A stretch of 64,000 nt of DNA from an uncultured Alphaproteobacteria bacterium (GCA_944391465.1 CALXTS010000002.1:21250-85249); one strand, 5' to 3'. Positions 6,858 through 19,084 are shown, numbered from the stretch's first letter. The notes: generated from the sequence alone by a model not told the origin. A program made the numbers and translations.

Positions 6858-7283
6858 ATGATAGACGGCGTTCATAAACAAATAATTTGGGATTCGATTG
6901 TTTGCCTTATCGTTGATGATGATAAGTTTTCGCGAACCTTTACCAAAACGGCATTATACCAAATAGGCATCAAAAACACCAAAGAAGCAGGTAGCGCCAA
7001 AGAAGCCTTAGAATTACTGCAAAGTTTTAAAATTGATATAATTTTACTTGACCAACAAATGCCTGAAAAGACCGGTTTGGAATTTGCAAGTGAATTAAAA
7101 CGGGGAATAGTTGAATCGGCAAAGAACACACCGATAATTATGATTACGGTAGATACCAAAGAAAAAACCGTTTTAGATGCAAAACAACTCGGCATACAAG
7201 AATATTTGGTAAAACCCATCTCTCCGTTGGCTTTAAAAAAACGTATATGTACGGCCTTTGGACTTAAACAAGAAAGAATATAA
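6858..7283 (+). CDS. Single-domain response regulator (CheY-like receiver)
   Basis: Receiver landmarks VDDD, ILLDQQMP (phospho-Asp), IIMIT and LVKP. No output domain. Confidence 0.8.
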   Translation: MIDGVHKQIIWDSIVCLIVDDDKFSRTFTKTALYQIGIKNTKEAGSAKEALELLQSFKIDIILLDQQMPEKTGLEFASELKRGIVESAKNTPIIMITVDTKEKTVLDAKQLGIQEYLVKPISPLALKKRICTAFGLKQERI

Positions 7284-10515: not shown

Positions 10516-10533
10516 AATATCTTCTCCTCATAG

Positions 10534-10568
10534 AAAACAGCCTTCTAAAAAAGAAGGCTGTTTTTTTT
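10534..10568. terminator. Bidirectional terminator
   Basis: CAGCCTTC / GAAGGCTG stem with an A-tract before and a T8 tract after. It lies between convergent genes. Confidence 0.7.
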
Positions 10569-11868
10569 ATTTTTTTATAACAAAAATTGTCTTACGCGGT
10601 TGAGCATTCAAAAGCCTCTGAATATAACGTCCTTGATACAAGTTAATTCCTAAAGAATTACCAATTTCAATCGCCTGAGCATCATCAATTCGACACAAAA
10701 TTAACTTTGAGCGCTCTGCTTTGTTAATATAATCCATAAAATGAGTATCTTCTTGAATAATATCAATAAAACTCGGATGCCAAATAACTTTAATCAAATC
10801 ACAATCTAAATTTTTTCTATTTAAAAATTTGAGTTTATCAACCGAAACCCCATCCACACAAACTTTGTATCCTCTTGCCTGAGCAAAAGTCTTTGCCAAC
10901 ATAAATGCTTTTATATCACTCAAAATATCAACCAATTGCAACTCTAAAATAATACTGGAACGCATTGAAGCATTAATATTATCATCAAAAGCCAAAAAGT
11001 CGTCCGACAGTAAGGTTGAAACATTAATATTTATACTGAAATTTCCGGCCAAAGAACCATCATCATGACGTCCAATAGTCTCCAACACTCTTTTATCTAA
11101 AGTTTCGCTTAAAGATAGAAAAAGCCATGGATTCGAGACCAAATCAACATCAGGAAGCAACATGTCTCTTAAATCCGGAATAGAAACATAAACCTCTTCA
11201 AAAATACGTTGCGGAGGAGCCTTACCAATAACGGCACAAATAGCCTGACGTCTGATAAAACTTGAAAAATCAGCCACAGACAAAATCTTTTGCAACTTAG
11301 CTAAAATGTCTGGATTCAGTTCTTTTTTAAGTTTTTTAGCATTAACAACGCTATTGAAAACAGAAGTCTGACTAGCCGCAAGATTTTCTTTTTTTGCAGA
11401 CGTATTATCAGCAGATGTCTGAGTTTTCTCAGTGCCGGAAATATTCATAGATTCTTGTAATTTTTTTCTGAAAGAACTTGTATCCGAAGACAAACTATAA
11501 AAGCACACAAACCCCGTTTGTTCCAAATCATCGGCATCACGAATAACCGGATCATCATAAAACATAAAACGAATTTTAACCAAACAGGCCAGAATTTCAT
11601 CATCAAATTTCTTATTATAAAAAACAACAATGTCATCATTGGGAAGAGAAAAAATCCCACCTTTAGATTTTTCAACGACATTTTCAAAAGTTTCGATCAT
11701 AGCCTGTCGCTGAACATTTTTCAGATTTTTATTCTGTAATCGGCCGACATCAAAGTACAAAACTTTAAAAAAAACTATTTCTTTCTCAATTTTTTTCATA
11801 AAATCAAGAATAATGGTATCTTGCTTGACAAAAGCCGTTTCTGAATTCTTATTTAAATTAAGTTCCAT
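10567..11868 (-). CDS. Cytoplasmic protein with degenerate GGDEF-like and degenerate EAL-like domains (paralogue 1)
   Basis: GGDEF position reads PNDDI in a VLYFDV...GGIFSLPNDDIVVF context. EAL-like landmarks are IFEEVYV, ISININVS, ILELQ, VCVDGVS, IKVIW, LCRIDD and YQGRY. An S/T/K-rich linker joins the two domains. Confidence 0.6.
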   Translation of the reverse strand: MELNLNKNSETAFVKQDTIILDFMKKIEKEIVFFKVLYFDVGRLQNKNLKNVQRQAMIETFENVVEKSKGGIFSLPNDDIVVFYNKKFDDEILACLVKIRFMFYDDPVIRDADDLEQTGFVCFYSLSSDTSSFRKKLQESMNISGTEKTQTSADNTSAKKENLAASQTSVFNSVVNAKKLKKELNPDILAKLQKILSVADFSSFIRRQAICAVIGKAPPQRIFEEVYVSIPDLRDMLLPDVDLVSNPWLFLSLSETLDKRVLETIGRHDDGSLAGNFSININVSTLLSDDFLAFDDNINASMRSSIILELQLVDILSDIKAFMLAKTFAQARGYKVCVDGVSVDKLKFLNRKNLDCDLIKVIWHPSFIDIIQEDTHFMDYINKAERSKLILCRIDDAQAIEIGNSLGINLYQGRYIQRLLNAQPRKTIFVIKK

Positions 11869-11873
11869 TGTTT

Positions 11874-13154
11874 TTATCCTAAAATCTTATCTAAAAAGCT
11901 TTTATCGAAACATTTATTACGAAAATCTCCGGCAATCATACGTCTGCGTTTTAAACAATCCATAAGTTTGCATTTCTGCCCATGCGGACACATATTTTTA
12001 ATCAACGCTGTTTCAATATTATCAGCAAACGGCCCTTGAAACTTCGTTATTTTATATTTCAAAGCCCAGCTCATAGCTTTATCATCCAGACACTTAGCCA
12101 AAATAAACTTATCGCTTCCGGTCTCATGAATCAACTCTTTCAACTGAGGATTATCGGGAGCATTTTCCATCGTATGGTTCCAAAAAATCTTCATATAATC
12201 CGGATTCAAACGTTTCAAATTCAACATACAAATCATATCTGGTTCCAGAGCATCTAATAAAATTTGATGCCCTTGGCTGTTTAAAAGTTCTTTAGCCTCA
12301 AAATATTGCGGTAAATTATTAAAAACGTCCATTACTTGAACTTCTGCAATAATTTTCTGATCTGGTTTTAGAAAATTATCAACCAAATGAGCAAATTCTT
12401 TTGAAAATATGGAAGATAAATTCATATTAACACTGATTTTGGGTGTCCAATTAGTAATTTCTGCTTTTTCAAAAGAAGCAAGTGTTTTTTTATCAAGAGT
12501 TTGAGAAAGATACATAAAAAGCCATTTATTTGCCTGCAAATCTAAATTAAGATCAAAAAACATGCTCAAATCTTTAACTGCGACAAAAAACTCTTGAAAC
12601 AAGACCTCAAATTTTTTCGCTCCGCCGACTTGAATTACGCTTTGTCGTTTAACAATATCGGGAATATCAATATTATCCAAGCGGCTTAAAACATCATCAA
12701 CTTGTCCGGCTTCCAATGGTTTGCGCAAGAACTCAATATCAAAACCATCATCTTTAGATTCCATCAGTGCTTTGATTTTTCCGTACAATGCCGGAAAATC
12801 CTCGGGAAAAACAAACAACGAAGCAAAAGTAGATGCATCTTGATTATAAAGCATCGGATCATTCGGTAAGCTATGGCGTAATTTATCAACGGCTAAATCA
12901 ACAGTTTCTGGTGAAATGTTTTTACCTAAAATAGCAAAATCACTGTTTGATAAAATAAACATCATTCCATTGGTTGCACCAACCAAATCATCAAACATTT
13001 TAGCAAAGATTTTAACAAACGACGGATGTCTGTTTTTGGGCTTAAGTTTAGAAACACTAACATACAACACGGAATAGCCTTGAGGATTTCTAGCTATCCG
13101 ATTCATAGAATCAAGCAAATATTTTTCAGCAACCTGATTTCCTACTTTTGCCAT
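11874..13154 (-). CDS. Cytoplasmic protein with degenerate GGDEF-like and degenerate EAL-like domains (paralogue 2) with a Cys-containing tail
   Basis: GGDEF position reads SNSDF (MMFILSNSDFAIL). EAL-like landmarks are LFQEFFV, ISVNMNLS, IAEVQ, ILLDALE, MKIFW, LAKCLDD and FQGPF. The C-terminal tail is CPHGQKCKLMDC...C. Confidence 0.6.
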   Translation of the reverse strand: MAKVGNQVAEKYLLDSMNRIARNPQGYSVLYVSVSKLKPKNRHPSFVKIFAKMFDDLVGATNGMMFILSNSDFAILGKNISPETVDLAVDKLRHSLPNDPMLYNQDASTFASLFVFPEDFPALYGKIKALMESKDDGFDIEFLRKPLEAGQVDDVLSRLDNIDIPDIVKRQSVIQVGGAKKFEVLFQEFFVAVKDLSMFFDLNLDLQANKWLFMYLSQTLDKKTLASFEKAEITNWTPKISVNMNLSSIFSKEFAHLVDNFLKPDQKIIAEVQVMDVFNNLPQYFEAKELLNSQGHQILLDALEPDMICMLNLKRLNPDYMKIFWNHTMENAPDNPQLKELIHETGSDKFILAKCLDDKAMSWALKYKITKFQGPFADNIETALIKNMCPHGQKCKLMDCLKRRRMIAGDFRNKCFDKSFLDKILG

Positions 13155-13228
13155 TAAATAAAAAGCCCTTTCAACCTATGTTAAGCTATATTAAACACTA
13201 TTTGTTTTTATATCAAGCCCTTTACCTT

Positions 13229-14491
13229 TTAATCCAAATTTAAATTATGCAAAACAGCTTTGCAATCATTTTCCGTACATGGTTTTTGAATAAAATTGAT
13301 AAAAACGTCTTTCTTTTTGAGTTTTTTTATCTCATCGGAACAAGGATTTCCGCTCATAAAAATAATTTTTTTATCTTTCCATTGTTGTCTGATAATTTTA
13401 TAAACGGACAATCCTGAATCATTTTTTAATTGAACGTCAATCCAAATTACATCTGCCTTTTCAGCGTCTTCTAACATTTTATCTGCAGAAGAAAAAACTT
13501 TTACCTTCAAACCTAATGATTGTAAAATTTCCTTTAATACTTTCCTAAAAAATTCATCATCATCTAAAATAAAGGCTGTAGCTTTCCACCCTGCCTTAGC
13601 TATAGGCAAATATATTTTAAAACGACTTCCGTTTGACGATGTCTCTACAGCAATATTTCCTTTATAGCGTTTCAAATAATCATAAACAGAAGCCAAACCT
13701 ATTCCACTCCCCTTTCCTTTACCTTTGGTTGTAAAGAAGGGATTAAATATTTGCTTTAAATATTTTTTCTTTATGCCGCAACCTTCATCGGCAACACAAA
13801 TCTCGACATAATCTCCAACAATGACAGGAAGCCGTAGATTTTGAGAATGTTTTTTCAATTGACATTTTTGCATCCCGATTTTTATTTGACCACCTTTTTT
13901 CATGGCATCTTTTGCATTTAGAAGCAAATTAAGAAGGATACTCTGCAAAGCCTCCACTGGAAAACAAACCTGACTTTCCTTGTCTTGTCCGACATAAGAG
14001 ATTTCATATTTTTTTTCCAATCCTGCACGCGCCAAATCAACTGTTTTACCAATAACTTCATCAACACAAAAGATTGCCGTTTTACTTTCCTCTTTGTTTG
14101 AAAAACCTAAAACTTCTTTTGATAAATACTGCAACCTGACACAAGCATCTTCAATAATATTTAAATATTTTTTCAGTTCGCTTTGTTCAGCTGTCTTTTT
14201 ATCAAGAATTTCGACAGCACCGATAATTCCGCCCAAAATATTATTAAAATCATGAGCCATCCCGCTGACTAAACGCCCCAAAGTCTGCAATTTTTGCAAA
14301 TGAGAAAGGTCTTTTCTGAACTGATATTGAGACCATAATTCATAAAATATCCATAAAACGGCAATATTAACGGCAACAAACAATTCCGTTCTGAAAAATT
14401 GAGAAGGCAATTGCCAAATCTTCCATTCGGCAAAAGCTAATACCCCGAGAACGATTCCGCAAAAAAATATTTTTATTTTACTAATCGGCAT
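13229..14491 (-). CDS. Hybrid sensor histidine kinase (2 TM, HisKA, HATPase, C-terminal receiver)
   Basis: H-box SGMAHDFNNILGGI. N-box LLLNAKDAM. G-boxes DEGCGI and GSGIGLASV. Receiver landmarks ILDDDE, WIDVQL, FMSG and IQKP. Two N-terminal TM helices are joined by only a short loop. Confidence 0.85.
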   Translation of the reverse strand: MPISKIKIFFCGIVLGVLAFAEWKIWQLPSQFFRTELFVAVNIAVLWIFYELWSQYQFRKDLSHLQKLQTLGRLVSGMAHDFNNILGGIIGAVEILDKKTAEQSELKKYLNIIEDACVRLQYLSKEVLGFSNKEESKTAIFCVDEVIGKTVDLARAGLEKKYEISYVGQDKESQVCFPVEALQSILLNLLLNAKDAMKKGGQIKIGMQKCQLKKHSQNLRLPVIVGDYVEICVADEGCGIKKKYLKQIFNPFFTTKGKGKGSGIGLASVYDYLKRYKGNIAVETSSNGSRFKIYLPIAKAGWKATAFILDDDEFFRKVLKEILQSLGLKVKVFSSADKMLEDAEKADVIWIDVQLKNDSGLSVYKIIRQQWKDKKIIFMSGNPCSDEIKKLKKKDVFINFIQKPCTENDCKAVLHNLNLD

Positions 14492-14605
14492 TTTTTCTCC
14501 AAAGTGACGTTATATTATATAGTAAATACAATTAATGCTTGATTTTATAGTTAAAAATCATTTATAAACCTATTGTACAACAAAATTATAAAGAAAGAAC
14601 TAAAG

Positions 14606-16075
14606 ATGCTGACACCTAAAAACAATGCTTTTTACATGAGAACAGAAATGTTGGTCAAAGTAGCTCAAAGCTACCTTAAAGACCGCCTTGCAACAGCAAA
14701 TGAAATACCTAATGAGGTTTATCCTGACGAAAGCACGCCAATGCGCGGCAGTTTGGAAAAAGACAGAGAAATCACCAAATTCAGAGCCATGGCGGCCATG
14801 GGAATAGATGTAACCGACGAAAATAATTGGTCAAAATCCCTTAATGAATGTGGACAAGAGGCACTAGCCAGAACGCAGGCACCAAAAAATAAAATTATGG
14901 TTATCAAATCTGCATGCAATGCTTGCAAAAAATCTCAACATATTGTCAGCAATCAATGTCAAGGCTGCTTTGCTCGCCCATGTATGGTTAATTGCCCCAA
15001 AAAAGCAATCAGTTTTGTTGACGGCAAAGCATTTATTGATACAAACTTATGCATTAATTGCGGCATTTGCAAAGAGGCCTGCCCATATCATGCAATCATA
15101 AAAGTAGCTCTTCCTTGCGAAGATGCTTGCCCCGTCGGTGCAATCAGTAAAGATGAACAGGGAATTGAACACATCGATACATCAAAATGCATTTCATGCG
15201 GACAATGCCTTGCATCTTGCCCGTTTGGAGCAATTGTAGAAGAATCTCATATTATAGATGTTTTGAAAGCAATGAAAGAAGGCGACAAAAAAGTTATCGC
15301 CATGGTTGCTCCGGCCATTATCGGACAATTTCCCGGTACTGTAGGAAATTTAGTCGGTGCTTTAAAAAAACTAGGTTTTGATGAAGTTATAGAAGTTGCG
15401 GTAGGTGCTGATATTACAACACTTAAAGAATCAAATGAGTTCATTGAAAGAATGCACGAAGGCGCAGCCTTTATGACAACCTCTTGCTGCCCGGCCTATT
15501 ACCGTGCAGTAGAAAAACATTTACAAGAACTAACCCCCTATGTATCAAGCACACGTTCTCCGATGTACTACACGGCAGAATTGGTAAAACAAGAAAATCC
15601 TGATTGCATAGCCGTGTTTGTAGGTCCTTGTCTGGCCAAAAGAGAAGAGCGCCAAAGAGATGAAAATCCCTTCACTGATTATGTCTTAACCTTTGAAGAA
15701 ATCGGCGCAATGTTTACAGCCGCAGAAATTAATGTAACAGCTTGTGAAGAAGCCTCTTTCAGCAAAATATCATATGCGCAAGGGCGTATCTTCCCAATAT
15801 CCGGAGGCGTTGCCAGTGCTGTTTCCGATTTAGTCGGAACCGATGCTGAAATCCGCTTGGAAAAAATAAACGGATTAACCAAAGACAGTGTTAAAATTCT
15901 AAAACGTTACGGAACCAAAGGCGGAGAAAACAACCTTATAGAAATCATGTGTTGTGAAGGCGGATGTATTGGAGGCCCCGGATGTGTTAATAGCCCCAAA
16001 AAGACAGTCCGCTCGGTTGAAAATTATGTTAAAGAAGCCCAACAACTAAAAAGGGATTCGAAAATCGGCGGATAA
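14606..16075 (+). CDS. [FeFe]-hydrogenase catalytic subunit-like protein with N-terminal Fe-S cluster domain
   Basis: H-cluster-type motifs TSCCPAY, GPCLAKREE and EIMCCEGGCIGGPG. Two CxxCxxCxxxCP ferredoxin motifs plus an extra CxxC...CxxCxxxxCxxxCP block. The start is uncertain: TTG 14573, ATG 14606 or ATG 14636. Confidence 0.8.
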   Translation: MLTPKNNAFYMRTEMLVKVAQSYLKDRLATANEIPNEVYPDESTPMRGSLEKDREITKFRAMAAMGIDVTDENNWSKSLNECGQEALARTQAPKNKIMVIKSACNACKKSQHIVSNQCQGCFARPCMVNCPKKAISFVDGKAFIDTNLCINCGICKEACPYHAIIKVALPCEDACPVGAISKDEQGIEHIDTSKCISCGQCLASCPFGAIVEESHIIDVLKAMKEGDKKVIAMVAPAIIGQFPGTVGNLVGALKKLGFDEVIEVAVGADITTLKESNEFIERMHEGAAFMTTSCCPAYYRAVEKHLQELTPYVSSTRSPMYYTAELVKQENPDCIAVFVGPCLAKREERQRDENPFTDYVLTFEEIGAMFTAAEINVTACEEASFSKISYAQGRIFPISGGVASAVSDLVGTDAEIRLEKINGLTKDSVKILKRYGTKGGENNLIEIMCCEGGCIGGPGCVNSPKKTVRSVENYVKEAQQLKRDSKIGG

Positions 16076-16084
16076 ATAATAAAA

Positions 16085-16116
16085 TAAAAAAGCTCCGAAA
16101 TCATCGGAGCTTTTTT
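16085..16116. terminator. Bidirectional terminator
   Basis: AGCTCCGA / TCGGAGCT stem with loop AATCA, flanked by A6 and T6. Confidence 0.7.
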
Positions 16117-16129
16117 ATTAGAAATAACT

Positions 16130-17269
16130 TTAATCTTTTCCGATATTAATATTTCGATTCACATAAACCGAAAGAATAATTCCAAAAGAAGCCATAACCG
16201 AAAGCACGACGGTTCCGCCATAAGAAATCAAAGCCAACGGCACTCCGACAACCGGAATAAGCCCTAAAACCATCGCCATATTAATAAAAACATACAAAAA
16301 GAAATTCGTAGCTAATCCTATAGCCGCCAATTTTCCAAAATAACTGGAGCTTTTAAGCGCAAAAGAATAACAATAAGCGATAACTATCATATTTAAAATT
16401 AAAACAAAAACCGCTCCAATCATACCAAATTCTTCAGAAAGCATGGTAAAGATAAAATCAGTATGTTTTTCAGGCAAAAAGTTCAAATGGCTTTGAGTTC
16501 CTTTCAAAAAACCTTTACCAAAAACCCCACCCGAACCAAGCGCAATTTTTGATTGAATAATATGATATCCCGCTCCTAAAGGATCACGTTCAGGATCCAA
16601 AAACGTCAGCACTCTGTTTTTTTGATAATCATACAAAAAATGCCACCCAACGGGAATAGATAGTAAAGCTCCTATCAAAACAATCCCAAATTTCCACAAC
16701 TGAACCCCAACCACAAAAAACATCGCTCCGGCTGTAAATAAAAGCATCAACGATGTTCCCAAATCTGGCTGAACCATAACCAAAAAAGCCGGAGCAAGAA
16801 CCATTAAAGCCGGTACAATTAATCCGCGAACCGATTCTATGCTTTGTAAGGAAGAAGAATGAAAATATCGAGCCAACGCCAAAACCAAAGCAATTTTCAT
16901 TAATTCAGATGGTTGCAATTTCATAAAGCCCAAATTAATCCAACGTTGAGCCCCCATGCCGACATGCCCCATAACATCCACAATAACAAGCAATATTAAG
17001 GTTCCAAAATAAAAAACATACGCATATCGCATAAAAATACGAATATCCACTAAAGCCAAAATAATCATTGCCGTAAAACCAATTCCAAAACGCAACAATT
17101 GATTTAAGGCCCACGGATGCCAATGGCCGTTTGCCGCAGAATACAACATAACAATACCAATCCCTGCCAACATCATAATCAGCATAATATAAGAAAAACT
17201 CAAATTCTGAAATTTTTCTTTTAGTGTTGGCGTTTGATTTTTAAAACTAGTTTCATAAAATTTATACAT
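16130..17269 (-). CDS. rodA: Rod shape-determining protein RodA (SEDS family)
   Basis: FtsW/RodA/SpoVE-type polytopic protein immediately downstream of mrdA. Confidence 0.9.
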   Translation of the reverse strand: MYKFYETSFKNQTPTLKEKFQNLSFSYIMLIMMLAGIGIVMLYSAANGHWHPWALNQLLRFGIGFTAMIILALVDIRIFMRYAYVFYFGTLILLVIVDVMGHVGMGAQRWINLGFMKLQPSELMKIALVLALARYFHSSSLQSIESVRGLIVPALMVLAPAFLVMVQPDLGTSLMLLFTAGAMFFVVGVQLWKFGIVLIGALLSIPVGWHFLYDYQKNRVLTFLDPERDPLGAGYHIIQSKIALGSGGVFGKGFLKGTQSHLNFLPEKHTDFIFTMLSEEFGMIGAVFVLILNMIVIAYCYSFALKSSSYFGKLAAIGLATNFFLYVFINMAMVLGLIPVVGVPLALISYGGTVVLSVMASFGIILSVYVNRNINIGKD

Positions 17270-17272
17270 AAA

Positions 17273-19084
17273 CTACTCCACAGGCTTAGGACTGGCATCA
17301 AGTTTAAGTGTTTCGAGCAAAAGCTCACTGGCAATACCGGCAGCTCCCTTTCCGTGCTCAATCAAAACAGCAATGGCATATTTAGGATTATCATGAGGCG
17401 CATACCCAACAAACAAAGAGTGATCTCTATATTTCCACGGCAAATCCTCTTGTTTTATTACACCGGACTGTCTTTCTTTCATTGTAATTCTGCGCACCTG
17501 CGTTGTTCCTGTTTTTCCGCACATTTTCTGTCCGTTAAAATCAAACCTCGACCAATATGCCGTTCCCCCCGGAACATTAACCACATCGCACATACCTTGT
17601 TTGACCAATTCCAAATTCATCGGCTTAATATTCATTTTTTTGAAATCGCGTTTTTCACCCGGATTAATTTTATTAAATGTCGGAACAACTTCATAACCTC
17701 CGCTGGCAACACGAGCCGTCATTGTAGCTAATTGAAGAGGAGTCGTTAAAACGTACCCCTGTCCAATACCAGAAATCAAAGATTCCCCTTGTTGCCAGGA
17801 TTCTCGAAAACGCTGCCATTTCCACTCTGTATCAGGAATAAGACCGCTTTTTTCATTTTCCAAACCAACATTAACTTTTTTGCCCAAACCAAATGCTCGG
17901 GCCATTTCGGCAATTTTATTAATTCCGAGTTTTTGTGCTGTTTCATAAAAAAAGATATCACAAGAATGTTGCAAAGCCTGAACAACATTGATATATCCAT
18001 GCCCAATATTTTTCCAACAGTGAAAAGTATGATTTCCCAACATCATTTTACCGGCACAAAAGCTCCGACTTAACGTATTGATAATTCCATTTTCCAAGCC
18101 GGCAAGAGCAACAACAATTTTAAACGTTGACCCCGGAGAATATTGTCCGGAAACAGCTTTATTAACCAACAAATTAAATTCATTGCTGTTCAGCTCTTTC
18201 CACTCTTCTGTACTAATTCCTTGTGTCATTAAATTTGGATCATATGCCGGAGCCGAAACAAAAGCTAAAATTTCACCGGTATTAACACTCATTAAAATAG
18301 CCGCACCACTGTTTCCTTCAAATAAATCATAGGCTTTTTCTTGCAAGCGAGCATCAAGACTAAGTTCAATTTTTTCTCCCGGAATACCTTCAACCTTTTC
18401 AATTTCTTTCATAATGCGCCCATAGGCATTAACTTCCAGTTTGAGGTTTCCGCCTTTACCTCGAAGCCTCTTTTCATATAATTTTTCGATTCCGGCTTTA
18501 CCAATCTTAAAACCGGGAACCTCTAAAAGCGGATCATCTTTCACATCATTTTCAGAAACAGAAGATACATAACCGATAACATGAGCCGTTTTTTCACCCA
18601 AAGGATAATAACGAGACAACCCCTCATCAATAATAATTCCGGGCAAATCAGGCGCATTTAATTGGATACGAGAAACCTCTTCCCATGTTAAGTTATCTTT
18701 AATTTTAATAGGAACAAAGCTACGATTTCTTTTTAAATCTTTTTTTATACGCTCCTCTTCAGCTTCGCTCAAAGGCATAATTTTTTTAAATGCATCGAGT
18801 GTCTCTTGAATATTAATTGTTTGCTCAGCCACCATCAACGCCTGAAAATTTTGTTGATTCGTAGCAAGCATTTGCTGATGTCTGTCATAAATAACTCCGC
18901 GAGGAGGGACCAGCATTCGAGTAGAAATTCGATTCTCATCAGCGAGAGTCTTATATTTATCAGCTTGATAAACCTGAAGATAATAAAGGCGCAAAATAAT
19001 AACCAGCAACAGCACAAACTGTCCGGCCCCCAGAATAAGAGCTCGATTAATAAGTACTTTACCTTTATCACTGTCGCGGTTCAT
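17273..19084 (-). CDS. mrdA: Penicillin-binding protein 2 (elongasome transpeptidase)
   Basis: SxxK (GSTFKIV) and KTGT (GKTGTTQV). N-terminal TM anchor. Positioned within mreBCD-mrdA-rodA. Confidence 0.9.
   Translation of the reverse strand: MNRDSDKGKVLINRALILGAGQFVLLLVIILRLYYLQVYQADKYKTLADENRISTRMLVPPRGVIYDRHQQMLATNQQNFQALMVAEQTINIQETLDAFKKIMPLSEAEEERIKKDLKRNRSFVPIKIKDNLTWEEVSRIQLNAPDLPGIIIDEGLSRYYPLGEKTAHVIGYVSSVSENDVKDDPLLEVPGFKIGKAGIEKLYEKRLRGKGGNLKLEVNAYGRIMKEIEKVEGIPGEKIELSLDARLQEKAYDLFEGNSGAAILMSVNTGEILAFVSAPAYDPNLMTQGISTEEWKELNSNEFNLLVNKAVSGQYSPGSTFKIVVALAGLENGIINTLSRSFCAGKMMLGNHTFHCWKNIGHGYINVVQALQHSCDIFFYETAQKLGINKIAEMARAFGLGKKVNVGLENEKSGLIPDTEWKWQRFRESWQQGESLISGIGQGYVLTTPLQLATMTARVASGGYEVVPTFNKINPGEKRDFKKMNIKPMNLELVKQGMCDVVNVPGGTAYWSRFDFNGQKMCGKTGTTQVRRITMKERQSGVIKQEDLPWKYRDHSLFVGYAPHDNPKYAIAVLIEHGKGAAGIASELLLETLKLDASPKPVE

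What the first reader, a model, noticed from the sequence alone, without database searches (positions are those of the whole stretch)
10567..16075. Sensor-less hybrid kinase plus two degenerate GGDEF-EAL proteins, transcribed divergently from an [FeFe]-hydrogenase gene
On the minus strand, the hybrid HK (13229-14491) is followed after 74 nt by the two paralogues, which looks like an operon. The kinase has only two TM helices with a minimal loop and no PAS, GAF or other input domain, so its signal probably comes from a partner. About 114 nt upstream and divergent lies a hydrogenase-like protein. Sensory [FeFe] hydrogenases are known to sit next to signalling genes. This suggests an H2- or redox-responsive signalling unit that outputs through c-di-GMP-type effectors. 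The HK-paralogue spacer also carries a direct repeat, AAGCCCTTT (13163 and 13215).
Basis: inference. Interest (0 to 1): 0.62.

Follow-up and report, generated by a model that had tools for sequence, protein, structure and literature searches.

The report
Eroded hydrogenase–kinase–GGDEF/EAL gene neighbourhood
A working hydrogen-producing enzyme gene sits back-to-back with a kinase that has lost its sensor domain and two inactive c-di-GMP-type proteins; this layout is conserved in related gut bacteria, but the real hydrogen sensor that relatives carry at this spot is missing here.

Summary
All the genes described are present at the stated coordinates. The hydrogenase (14606-16075) is a catalytic group B [FeFe] enzyme, not a sensory one. 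It scores above the TIGR04105 cut-off, keeps the TSCCP proton-relay Cys and has no PAS domain. The genome has PFOR and HydE/F/G but no HydS, PP2C or HydABC.

In 80 related loci from gut Alphaproteobacteria, a hydrogenase gene lies divergently next to (HK)-P2-P1 in 71. That junction changed only once on the tree. The inferred ancestral layout is HydB<-PP2C<-HydS (hfs-type H2-sensor cassette) | HK->P2->P1.

The kinase is vertically inherited from a roughly 690-aa hybrid kinase with a periplasmic SBP_bac_3 sensor. The window copy lost that domain but keeps the TM hairpin and all catalytic motifs, with dN/dS about 0.11. Other lineages truncated or lost the kinase (present in 41 of 80).

P1 and P2 fold like GGDEF-EAL proteins (LapD, MorA, FimX) but lack the GGDEF motif and several EAL catalytic residues. 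P2 alone has an invariant, unclassified Cys4 tail (77 of 77 orthologues).

H2 or redox input through the hydrogenase is not supported. The link between the kinase and P2-P1 is plausible but untested.

The parts
10567..11868 (-). P1: 433-aa stand-alone degenerate GGDEF-EAL protein. 'PNDDI' replaces GGDEF. EAL-site residues E225, N280/N282, E309, D339, K360, D396 and Q412 are kept. The R of EALxR, the second E of ExxE and the second D of DD are lost.
   Evidence: Pfam EAL 30.4 bits, below the cut-off. AF2 model pLDDT 74.7. Foldseek probability 1.0 to MorA 4rnf, PA0861 5xgb, LapD 6pwj and FimX. Invariant columns in alignment A5. Alignment to EAL chain 8pps.
11874..13154 (-). P2: 426-aa paralogue of P1 ('SNSDF' in place of GGDEF). 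It lies 5 nt upstream of P1.
   Evidence: BLASTP against P1: 23% identity, E 3e-35. Pfam EAL 26.5 bits. The P2-P1 tandem is conserved in 36 same-genus genomes and in four other families.
11910..11990 (-). P2-specific C-terminal Cys4 motif C389-x5-C395-x4-C400-x14-C415 (CPHGQKCKLMDCLKRRRMIAGDFRNKC). Presumed metal site, Zn or Fe-S.
   Evidence: The exact pattern occurs in 77 of 77 P2 orthologues and 0 of 77 P1. It is also present in outgroup families G037, G039 and G055, with a variant in G060. No Pfam hit. No homology to the HydS PF04060 motif. No PDB fold match.
13155..13228 (-). 74-nt HK-P2 spacer with a promoter-like TTGATA-17-TAATAT (13216-13188) and the P2 ribosome-binding site. No terminator. 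Holds the two AAGCCCTTT copies.
   Evidence: The spacer is 91% identical across four lineages whose HK proteins are only 48-52% identical.
13229..14491 (-). Hybrid histidine kinase, 420 aa. TM hairpin (aa ~3-55; nt ~14330-14485), HisKA (aa 71-135; H80), HATPase_c (aa 180-298), receiver (aa 307-412; D310/D311, D352, S380, K403). No sensor domain.
   Evidence: Pfam, motif conservation, dN/dS 0.10-0.12, orthologues with an SBP_bac_3 sensor, vertical placement in the tree.
14492..14605 (.). 114-nt divergent intergenic region. The HydB-proximal ~90 nt are nearly invariant in sister lineages. Contains a 7-bp inverted repeat TGATTTT/AAAATCA (14540-14560) and an imperfect 32-nt palindrome (14561-14592).
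14606..16075 (+). HydB: monomeric group B [FeFe] hydrogenase, 489 aa. N-terminal Cys-rich and ferredoxin-like clusters, plus an H-domain with TSCCP, GPCLAKREE and MCCEGGCIGGPG.
   Evidence: TIGR04105 525 bits, above the 450 cut-off. Pfam Fe_hyd_lg_C 218 bits. Motifs. PDB homologues are catalytic hydrogenases.
10532..10566 (.). Strong hairpin terminator downstream of P1, shared with the convergent DUF465 gene. It bounds the putative HK-P2-P1 transcription unit.
16083..16119 (.). Hairpin terminator between HydB and the convergent rodA gene.

Best explanation
The locus is an eroded copy of a neighbourhood that is conserved across a genus-level clade of gut Alphaproteobacteria. The inferred ancestral form is an hfs-type hydrogenase cassette (sensory HydS, PP2C phosphatase, group B HydB) lying back-to-back with HK->P2->P1.

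In this genome only HydB remains of the cassette. HydB is an ordinary catalytic, ferredoxin-reoxidising, H2-evolving enzyme. It is fed by PFOR and matured by HydE/F/G, all encoded elsewhere.

The kinase descends vertically from a hybrid kinase whose input was a periplasmic SBP_bac_3 solute-binding domain. An internal deletion removed that domain and left a TM hairpin. The kinase and receiver cores stay intact under purifying selection.

P2 and P1 are catalytically dead GGDEF-EAL proteins. They probably work as a pair through ligand binding (c-di-GMP and/or a metal at the P2 Cys4 tail) and protein contacts.

Inferred: HK-P2-P1 is one transcription unit, and the kinase is an accessory, dispensable modulator of the P2-P1 core. 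The hydrogenase is a neighbour, not the sensor.
For: HydB is group B: TIGR04105 525 bits against a 450 cut-off, TSCCP kept, no PAS domain. Group B enzymes are active ferredoxin-dependent H2 producers (PMC12578642). The genome has PFOR (1789 bits), HydF (499 bits) and HydE/HydG-like genes.

No HydS, PP2C or HydABC is found in a genome estimated 100% complete. Relatives carry HydS (STACP, PF04060, PAS-like tail), PP2C and HydB at this position.

Census of 80 loci: a hydrogenase gene is adjacent in 71, and the kinase is present in 41 (15 long with SBP_bac_3, 26 short). On the tree, hydrogenase adjacency changes once, whereas the gene on the far side of P1 changes family at least 36 times.

The HK tree places the window clade beside L030, L042 and P0005, the same position as in the P2-P1 tree, which indicates vertical descent. 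The alignment shows the SBP domain missing between TM1 and TM2. All kinase and receiver motifs are intact. dN/dS is 0.11 for the kinase, against 0.03-0.05 for its neighbours.

The P1 model matches GGDEF-EAL structures. No terminator is predicted between HK and P1.
Against: Co-transcription and any physical or phospho-link between the kinase and P2/P1 are untested. The spacer has its own conserved promoter-like element, and P2-P1 persist without the kinase in half of the species.

No Hpt domain and no co-distributed response regulator were found, so the kinase output is unknown.

The very stable hydrogenase|P2-P1 junction (one break) hints at a functional link that this explanation treats as mere linkage.

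Within the 33-row clade that holds the window, every other row lacks the kinase. Vertical descent therefore requires several independent losses there.

The 80 loci are the best 80 of 183 found, so the census is biased towards close relatives.
Confidence: 0.6

Rival explanations
1. The locus is an H2- or redox-responsive signalling unit. The neighbouring hydrogenase, or the redox state it sets, supplies the input to the sensor-less kinase, which outputs through P2/P1.
For: Hydrogenase|(HK)-P2-P1 adjacency is kept in 71 of 80 loci with one break, while the outer flanks vary. The kinase stays under purifying selection after losing its sensor, so some other input is needed. P2 carries an invariant Cys4 motif that could be a redox-active metal site. 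In 14 loci a true sensory HydS is the divergent neighbour of the kinase.
Against: The hydrogenase here is catalytic group B with the proton-relay Cys and no PAS domain. This genome has no HydS or PP2C. The ancestral kinase input is a periplasmic solute-binding domain. All combinations of kinase state and HydS presence occur, with no association, although the test is underpowered. P-family proteins occur in genomes without [FeFe] hydrogenases, and P2-P1 and the hydrogenase are unlinked in other families.
Confidence: 0.12
2. Pure linkage with a decaying kinase. The three units (HydB, HK, P2-P1) are functionally unrelated, and the truncated kinase is a remnant on its way to loss.
For: The kinase is absent in 39 of 80 loci, with at least 5 changes of presence and 4 changes between long and short forms. 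Nine short forms lack a recognisable H-box. The window kinase sits on a long branch and is only 48-52% identical to sister copies whose neighbours are 81-90% identical. No Hpt or partner regulator was found.
Against: dN/dS is about 0.11 in the sensor-less clade, and the H, N, G1, G2 and receiver Asp/Lys motifs are all intact in four lineages. When present, the kinase always lies directly upstream of P2 in the same orientation, 41 of 41.
Confidence: 0.18
3. P2-P1 act without c-di-GMP, like CsrD, YdiV or BluF. They would be protein- or RNA-binding adaptors whose EAL-like pocket is only structural.
For: Pfam EAL is below threshold. The GGDEF motif, the EALxR arginine and several catalytic residues are lost. 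The only NCBIfam hit is a weak one to CsrD.
Against: E225, N280/282, E309, D339, K360, D396 and Q412 are invariant in both paralogues, with spacing like the metal and nucleotide site of active EAL domains. The genome encodes GGDEF proteins, one with a 166-bit match.
Confidence: 0.3

Closest known systems
Group B [FeFe] hydrogenases (TIGR04105; Bacteroides and Firmicutes gut enzymes, PMC12578642)
   Same: Full-length match above the curated cut-off. Monomeric architecture with N-terminal ferredoxin-like clusters. Canonical H-cluster motifs. PFOR and HydE/F/G are in the genome.
   Different: The host is a gut alphaproteobacterium with a 1.58-Mb genome. Here it is the only [FeFe] hydrogenase and has lost the HydS-PP2C regulators that relatives keep upstream.
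hfsABCD / hydS-hydA2 sensory-hydrogenase cassettes (Thermoanaerobacterium saccharolyticum, Ruminococcus albus; PMC5707799)
   Same: Relatives of this genome carry HydS (PAS-like tail, extra 4-Cys cluster, Ala in place of the proton-relay Cys), a PP2C phosphatase and a catalytic hydrogenase in one orientation at the homologous position.
   Different: The window has only the catalytic gene. It has no HydS, no PP2C and no Ser/Thr kinase, so it is not a member of this system.
Hybrid histidine kinases with periplasmic SBP_bac_3 (Venus-flytrap type) sensor domains
   Same: The orthologues are TM1-SBP_bac_3-TM2-HisKA-HATPase-REC. The window kinase shares the TM2-to-REC part and the conserved motifs.
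   Different: The sensor domain is deleted, leaving a TM hairpin with a loop of about 10 aa. The protein has evolved quickly since then.
Degenerate GGDEF-EAL receptors and adaptors (LapD, FimX; CsrD as a c-di-GMP-independent case)
   Same: Dual-domain fold (Foldseek probability 1.0), loss of the GGDEF motif and of EAL catalytic residues, and retention of part of the EAL pocket.
   Different: No TM, HAMP, PAS or REC domains. About 10-14% sequence identity. They occur as a conserved tandem pair, and one member has a unique Cys4 tail. The ligand is unknown.
ShkA of Caulobacter (sensor-less hybrid kinase activated by c-di-GMP). Recalled from memory, not tested here.
   Same: A hybrid kinase without a classical input domain, in an alphaproteobacterium with c-di-GMP signalling.
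   Different: ShkA binds c-di-GMP through its own pseudo-receiver. Here any c-di-GMP input would have to come through the separate P2/P1 proteins.

Membership tests
Group B [FeFe] hydrogenase | Full-length match to the TIGR04105 (FeFe_hydrog_B1) model above its curated cut-off | tested here: met
   525.4 bits against a 450 cut-off, profile positions 3-461 of 462.
Group B [FeFe] hydrogenase | Intact H-cluster motifs including the proton-relay Cys (TSCCP, PCxxK, CxxGCxxG) | tested here: met
   TTSCCPAY, GPCLAKREE and MCCEGGCIGGPG.
Group B [FeFe] hydrogenase | H-cluster maturases HydE, HydF and HydG in the genome | tested here: met
   HydF 499 bits, above the 325 cut-off. The HydE-like and HydG genes on C18 were identified from their N-terminal 60 aa only.
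Group C sensory [FeFe] hydrogenase (HydS) | C-terminal PAS domain and extra 4-Cys cluster (PF04060) | tested here: not met
   The window protein ends right after the H-domain. The relatives' HydS has both features.
Group C sensory [FeFe] hydrogenase (HydS) | Substituted proton-relay Cys (often Ala; PMC10055695) | tested here: not met
   The window has TSCCP. The relatives' HydS has STACP (literature).
hfs-type H2-sensor cassette | HydS and PP2C phosphatase genes next to the catalytic hydrogenase | tested here: not met
   tblastn of the whole genome with the relatives' HydS and PP2C finds only HydB. The cassette is present in 30 of 80 related loci.
Hybrid histidine kinase (HisKA type) | HisKA, HATPase_c and receiver domains with the H, N, G1, G2 boxes and the acceptor Asp | tested here: met
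   Pfam 41.5, 67.2 and 57.0 bits, all above cut-offs. H80, the N box, DEGCGI, GSGIGL, D352 and K403 are conserved.
Hybrid histidine kinase (HisKA type) | Autophosphorylation and phosphorelay to Hpt or a response regulator | not testable with these tools
   No Pfam Hpt in the genome at E <= 0.01. No response regulator is co-distributed with the kinase.
SBP_bac_3-sensor hybrid kinase | Periplasmic PF00497 domain between two TM helices | tested here: not met
   Absent in the window. Present in 15 orthologues of 668-728 aa.
GGDEF-EAL dual-domain proteins | Both folds present in tandem | tested here: met
   Foldseek alignments of about 445-469 columns to MorA, PA0861, LapD and PA0575, E 1e-11 to 1e-9. 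The model has a moderate pLDDT of 74.7.
GGDEF-EAL dual-domain proteins | Pfam GGDEF and EAL matches at gathering threshold; GG[DE]EF and the full EAL catalytic set | tested here: not met
   No GGDEF hit. EAL 30.4 and 26.5 bits against 31.3. PNDDI and SNSDF replace GGDEF. L312, G340 and I362 replace catalytic E, D and D.
c-di-GMP receptors of the LapD/FimX type | Binding of c-di-GMP at the degenerate EAL site | not testable with these tools
   A partial site is invariant (E225, N280/282, E309, D339, K360, D396, Q412). The genome encodes GGDEF proteins.
HK-P2-P1 operon | Co-transcription | tested here: inconclusive
   Same strand, gaps of 74 and 5 nt, no predicted terminator, but a conserved promoter-like site in the spacer. 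No RNA data.

The most novel reading that the evidence does not exclude
The P2-P1 pair is a previously undescribed signalling device made of two dead GGDEF-EAL proteins, one with an invariant Cys4 metal site. In this genus it would be functionally tied to the hfs-type hydrogenase cassette. It could be the missing partner or target of the HydS-PP2C H2 sensor, or it could feed a redox or c-di-GMP signal into the hybrid kinase. The second option would explain why the kinase survives repeated loss of its own sensor domain.
Probability: 0.12. Interest if true: 0.7.

Novelty: new variant of a known kind. Interest (0 to 1): 0.4.

Why it matters
How putative H2-sensing [FeFe] hydrogenases pass on their signal is unsolved, and the target of their PP2C partner is unknown. 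This clade offers a natural comparison set. Species differ in having or lacking HydS-PP2C, in having a full, truncated or absent kinase, and in whether the P2-P1 pair is still linked to the hydrogenase.

The P-family is large and unnamed: about 1,600 clusters at 50% identity, nearly all around 420 aa. The invariant Cys4 tail of P2 is a concrete biochemical handle that can be tested for Fe-S against Zn.

For this genome alone the practical result is modest. Its single hydrogenase is a fermentative H2 producer without the usual sensor.

Tried and rejected
1. My first reading was that the kinase is a recent insertion unique to this genome, because none of 36 same-genus genomes has an orthologue. 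I rejected this after finding orthologues in Logan contigs and in 38 of the 80 named loci, and after obtaining congruent trees.

2. Aligning the intergenic regions with kinase-less relatives to find insertion borders showed no detectable homology.

3. RNA evidence for co-transcription: the only metatranscriptomes found held nothing from the locus.

4. A cognate regulator: no Pfam Hpt. The apparently extra OmpR-type regulator on C22 has orthologues in kinase-less genomes.

5. An association between the kinase and HydS on the tree: too few independent contrasts.

6. The P2 Cys4 tail as a PF04060-type Fe-S motif: hhalign probability 0.3%, no Pfam hit, no PDB fold match.

7. The 9-mer direct repeat: at chance level and not conserved.

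8. A profile search of P1/P2 against PDB sequences gave only an insignificant EAL hit. The fold comparison was needed.

Full report
**What is in the window.**
- P1, 10567-11868(-)
- P2, 11874-13154(-)
- a hybrid histidine kinase, 13229-14491(-)
- a divergent [FeFe] hydrogenase whose real start is ATG 14606 (alignment with orthologues)

The gaps are 5 nt (P2-P1), 74 nt (HK-P2) and 114 nt (HK|hydrogenase). The kinase has HisKA, HATPase_c and Response_reg above Pfam cut-offs and nothing else. Its N-terminus has two hydrophobic segments separated by about 10 residues. P1 and P2 are distant paralogues (23% identity, E 3e-35) with only sub-threshold Pfam EAL matches. Hairpin terminators lie after P1 and after the hydrogenase, and none lies between HK and P1. 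The AAGCCCTTT repeat exists but is at chance level and is not conserved as a repeat in sister lineages.

**The hydrogenase is catalytic, not sensory.** It matches NCBIfam TIGR04105 ("monomeric [FeFe] hydrogenase", group B1) over its full length at 525 bits against a 450 cut-off. It keeps TSCCP, PCxxK and the C-terminal Cys motif and ends just after the H-domain, with no PAS domain. Group B enzymes have been shown to be active, ferredoxin-dependent H2 producers coupled to PFOR (PMC12578642). The window's own genome is 1.58 Mb and estimated 100% complete. It encodes PFOR (1789 bits), HydF (499 bits) and HydE/HydG-like genes. tblastn with the relatives' HydS, PP2C and HydABC proteins finds nothing but this one hydrogenase.

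**What relatives carry at this position.** In many same-genus genomes the P2-P1 pair is divergent from a three-gene unit.
- The first gene is a roughly 590-aa hydrogenase-like protein. It has Fer4, Fe_hyd_lg_C, the PF04060 4-Cys cluster and a PAS-like tail, and it has STACP instead of TSCCP. These are the signature of sensory HydS proteins, where Ala is the commonest residue at that position (PMC10055695).
- The second gene is a SpoIIE/PP2C phosphatase.
- The third gene is the group B hydrogenase.

This is the hfs/hydS-type cassette described in Thermoanaerobacterium and Ruminococcus (PMC5707799). Earlier notes of this scan on related genomes reached the same reading.

**The kinase is not unique to this genome.** None of 36 sampled same-genus genomes has an orthologue. 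At first this suggested a private insertion. A protein search then found 48-52% identical 420-aa orthologues, each in the identical context HydB<-|->HK-P2-P1. The neighbouring proteins there are 81-90% identical.

A scan of species-representative genomes with the P1 profile returned 80 named loci. They come from gut Alphaproteobacteria MAGs of human, chicken ("Candidatus Scatocola"), deer and rabbit. I classified those with complete genes, together with the window and two Logan contigs, 80 rows in all:

| Kinase | Upstream neighbour | Rows |
|---|---|---|
| none | HydS | 16 |
| none | HydB | 14 |
| none | RodA | 9 |
| long | HydS | 5 |
| long | HydB | 10 |
| short | HydS | 9 |
| short | HydB | 17 |

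A hydrogenase gene is therefore the divergent neighbour in 71 of 80 rows, and the kinase is present in 41 of 80. When present, the kinase always lies directly upstream of P2 on the same strand.

**Origin of the "sensor-less" state.** The 15 long kinases (668-728 aa) have a periplasmic SBP_bac_3 domain between two TM helices, followed by HisKA-HATPase-REC. The alignment shows that the window kinase lacks exactly this domain but keeps both TM segments. Other short forms begin at TM2.

On a P2+P1 tree rooted with two other families, the basal lineages have a long kinase next to HydS. Minimum numbers of changes on the tree are as follows:
- Kinase presence: 5 changes
- Long versus short kinase: 4 changes
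- HydS versus HydB as the neighbour: 7 changes
- Hydrogenase adjacency: 1 change
- Gene family on the far side of P1: at least 36 changes among 71 rows

The last count is noisy because it depends on ORF calling.

The genus kinases are monophyletic. The window clade sits beside L030, L042 and P0005, the same place as in the P2-P1 tree, so the gene is inherited vertically, on a long branch. Within the 33-row clade that holds the window, all other rows lack the kinase. Vertical descent therefore implies several independent losses there.

The kinase is still functional by sequence criteria. H80, the N, G1 and G2 boxes, D310/D311, D352 and K403 are all conserved. In the least saturated pair, dN/dS is 0.11, against 0.03-0.05 for P2, P1 and HydB. 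Nine other short forms have lost a recognisable H-box, so decay is under way elsewhere.

**P1 and P2.** An AlphaFold model of P1 (pLDDT 74.7) matches GGDEF-EAL dual-domain structures over both domains at 10-14% identity. The matches include MorA, PA0861, LapD, PA0575 and FimX.

- **GGDEF motif:** it is PNDDI in P1 and SNSDF in P2.
- **EAL-site residues kept:** E225, N280/282, E309, D339, K360, D396 and Q412 are invariant in both paralogues, with spacing like active EAL domains.
- **EAL-site residues lost:** the Arg of EALxR, the second Glu of ExxE and the second Asp of DD.

Hydrolysis is therefore unlikely, and ligand binding is possible. The genome has GGDEF proteins.

The family is large, with 1,604 clusters at 50% identity at E <= 0.001, almost all around 420 aa. 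It is unnamed in Pfam and NCBIfam. The P2-P1 tandem also occurs in four other families, where it is not next to hydrogenases. Single homologues occur in genomes without [FeFe] hydrogenases.

**A new feature of P2.** P2, but not P1, ends in the motif C-x5-C-x4-C-x14-C. The motif is present in 77 of 77 P2 orthologues and 0 of 77 P1, and it is also found in the outgroup families. It has no Pfam match. It shows no profile similarity to the HydS PF04060 cluster motif. It has no fold match in the PDB, although the model is confident at pLDDT 84. Four invariant cysteines in a cytoplasmic protein of an anaerobe suggest a metal site. Whether it binds Zn or Fe-S cannot be decided here.

**Interpretation.**
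- **Shown:** the gene identities, the group B class of the hydrogenase, the absence of HydS and PP2C from this genome, the conserved neighbourhood, the secondary loss of the kinase sensor domain, purifying selection on the kinase, and the degenerate GGDEF-EAL fold.
- **Inferred:** HK-P2-P1 act together, and the kinase is an optional modulator of a P2-P1 core. This rests on orientation, spacing and the 41 of 41 positional association.
- **Not supported:** that the hydrogenase is the sensor. The kinase and HydS are gained and lost independently, although the formal test is underpowered.
- **Unexplained:** the unusually stable hydrogenase|P2-P1 junction and the P2 Cys4 tail. These leave room, at about 12%, for a real link between the hydrogenase cassette and P2-P1.

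**What could not be done.** No RNA data cover the locus. No Hpt domain or co-distributed regulator was found. Structural models of complexes were not available.

Noticed in passing
window 11910-11990 (-), P2 residues 389-415: Invariant Cys4 motif C-x5-C-x4-C-x14-C at the C-terminus of P2 only. It is conserved across several alphaproteobacterial families and has no Pfam, PF04060 or PDB-fold match. Possible Zn or Fe-S site.
   Followed up: yes
L004:4512-9229 and 30 of the 80 loci L020-L099: Relatives carry an hfs-type cassette at the position of the window's kinase-hydrogenase gap: HydS (STACP, PF04060, PAS-like tail), a 391-aa PP2C phosphatase and group B HydB. The window genome lacks HydS, PP2C and also the group A3 HydABC that most relatives have.
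   Followed up: yes
L032, L036, L045, L048, L050, L052, L054, L072, L098 (kinase ORFs upstream of P2): Short kinase forms of 327-394 aa without a recognisable H-box. Several also have no Pfam HisKA hit. They look like intermediate stages of kinase decay.
   Followed up: partly
window 14540-14592: A 7-bp inverted repeat TGATTTT/AAAATCA and an imperfect 32-nt palindrome lie just upstream of the HydB start. They sit in a stretch that is nearly invariant in sister lineages (L016-L018) and may be an operator.
   Followed up: partly
L007 (G004:C1) and L084-L097: In one derived clade P2-P1 follow pbp2-rodA directly on the same strand, with a gap of about 90-110 nt, and the hydrogenase cassette lies elsewhere. 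In the window rodA-pbp2 (16130-19084) flank HydB. The cassette therefore seems to sit inside an older rodA/P2-P1 neighbourhood.
   Followed up: partly
window 6906-7247 (+) (G000:C2:28155-28496): A single-domain receiver protein of about 154 aa lies 3.3 kb from P1, upstream of bacA. It is conserved in relatives that lack the kinase, so it is probably not the kinase's dedicated partner.
   Followed up: no
G000:C1:84504-84950 (outside the window): A 269-aa membrane-anchored GGDEF protein (100 bits) has no counterpart reported among four compared same-genus genomes. It is a possible lineage-specific diguanylate cyclase.
   Followed up: no
L004:6298-7473 (PP2C of relatives): The PP2C domain covers only residues 34-228 of 391. 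The C-terminal 160 aa or so have no Pfam family.
   Followed up: no
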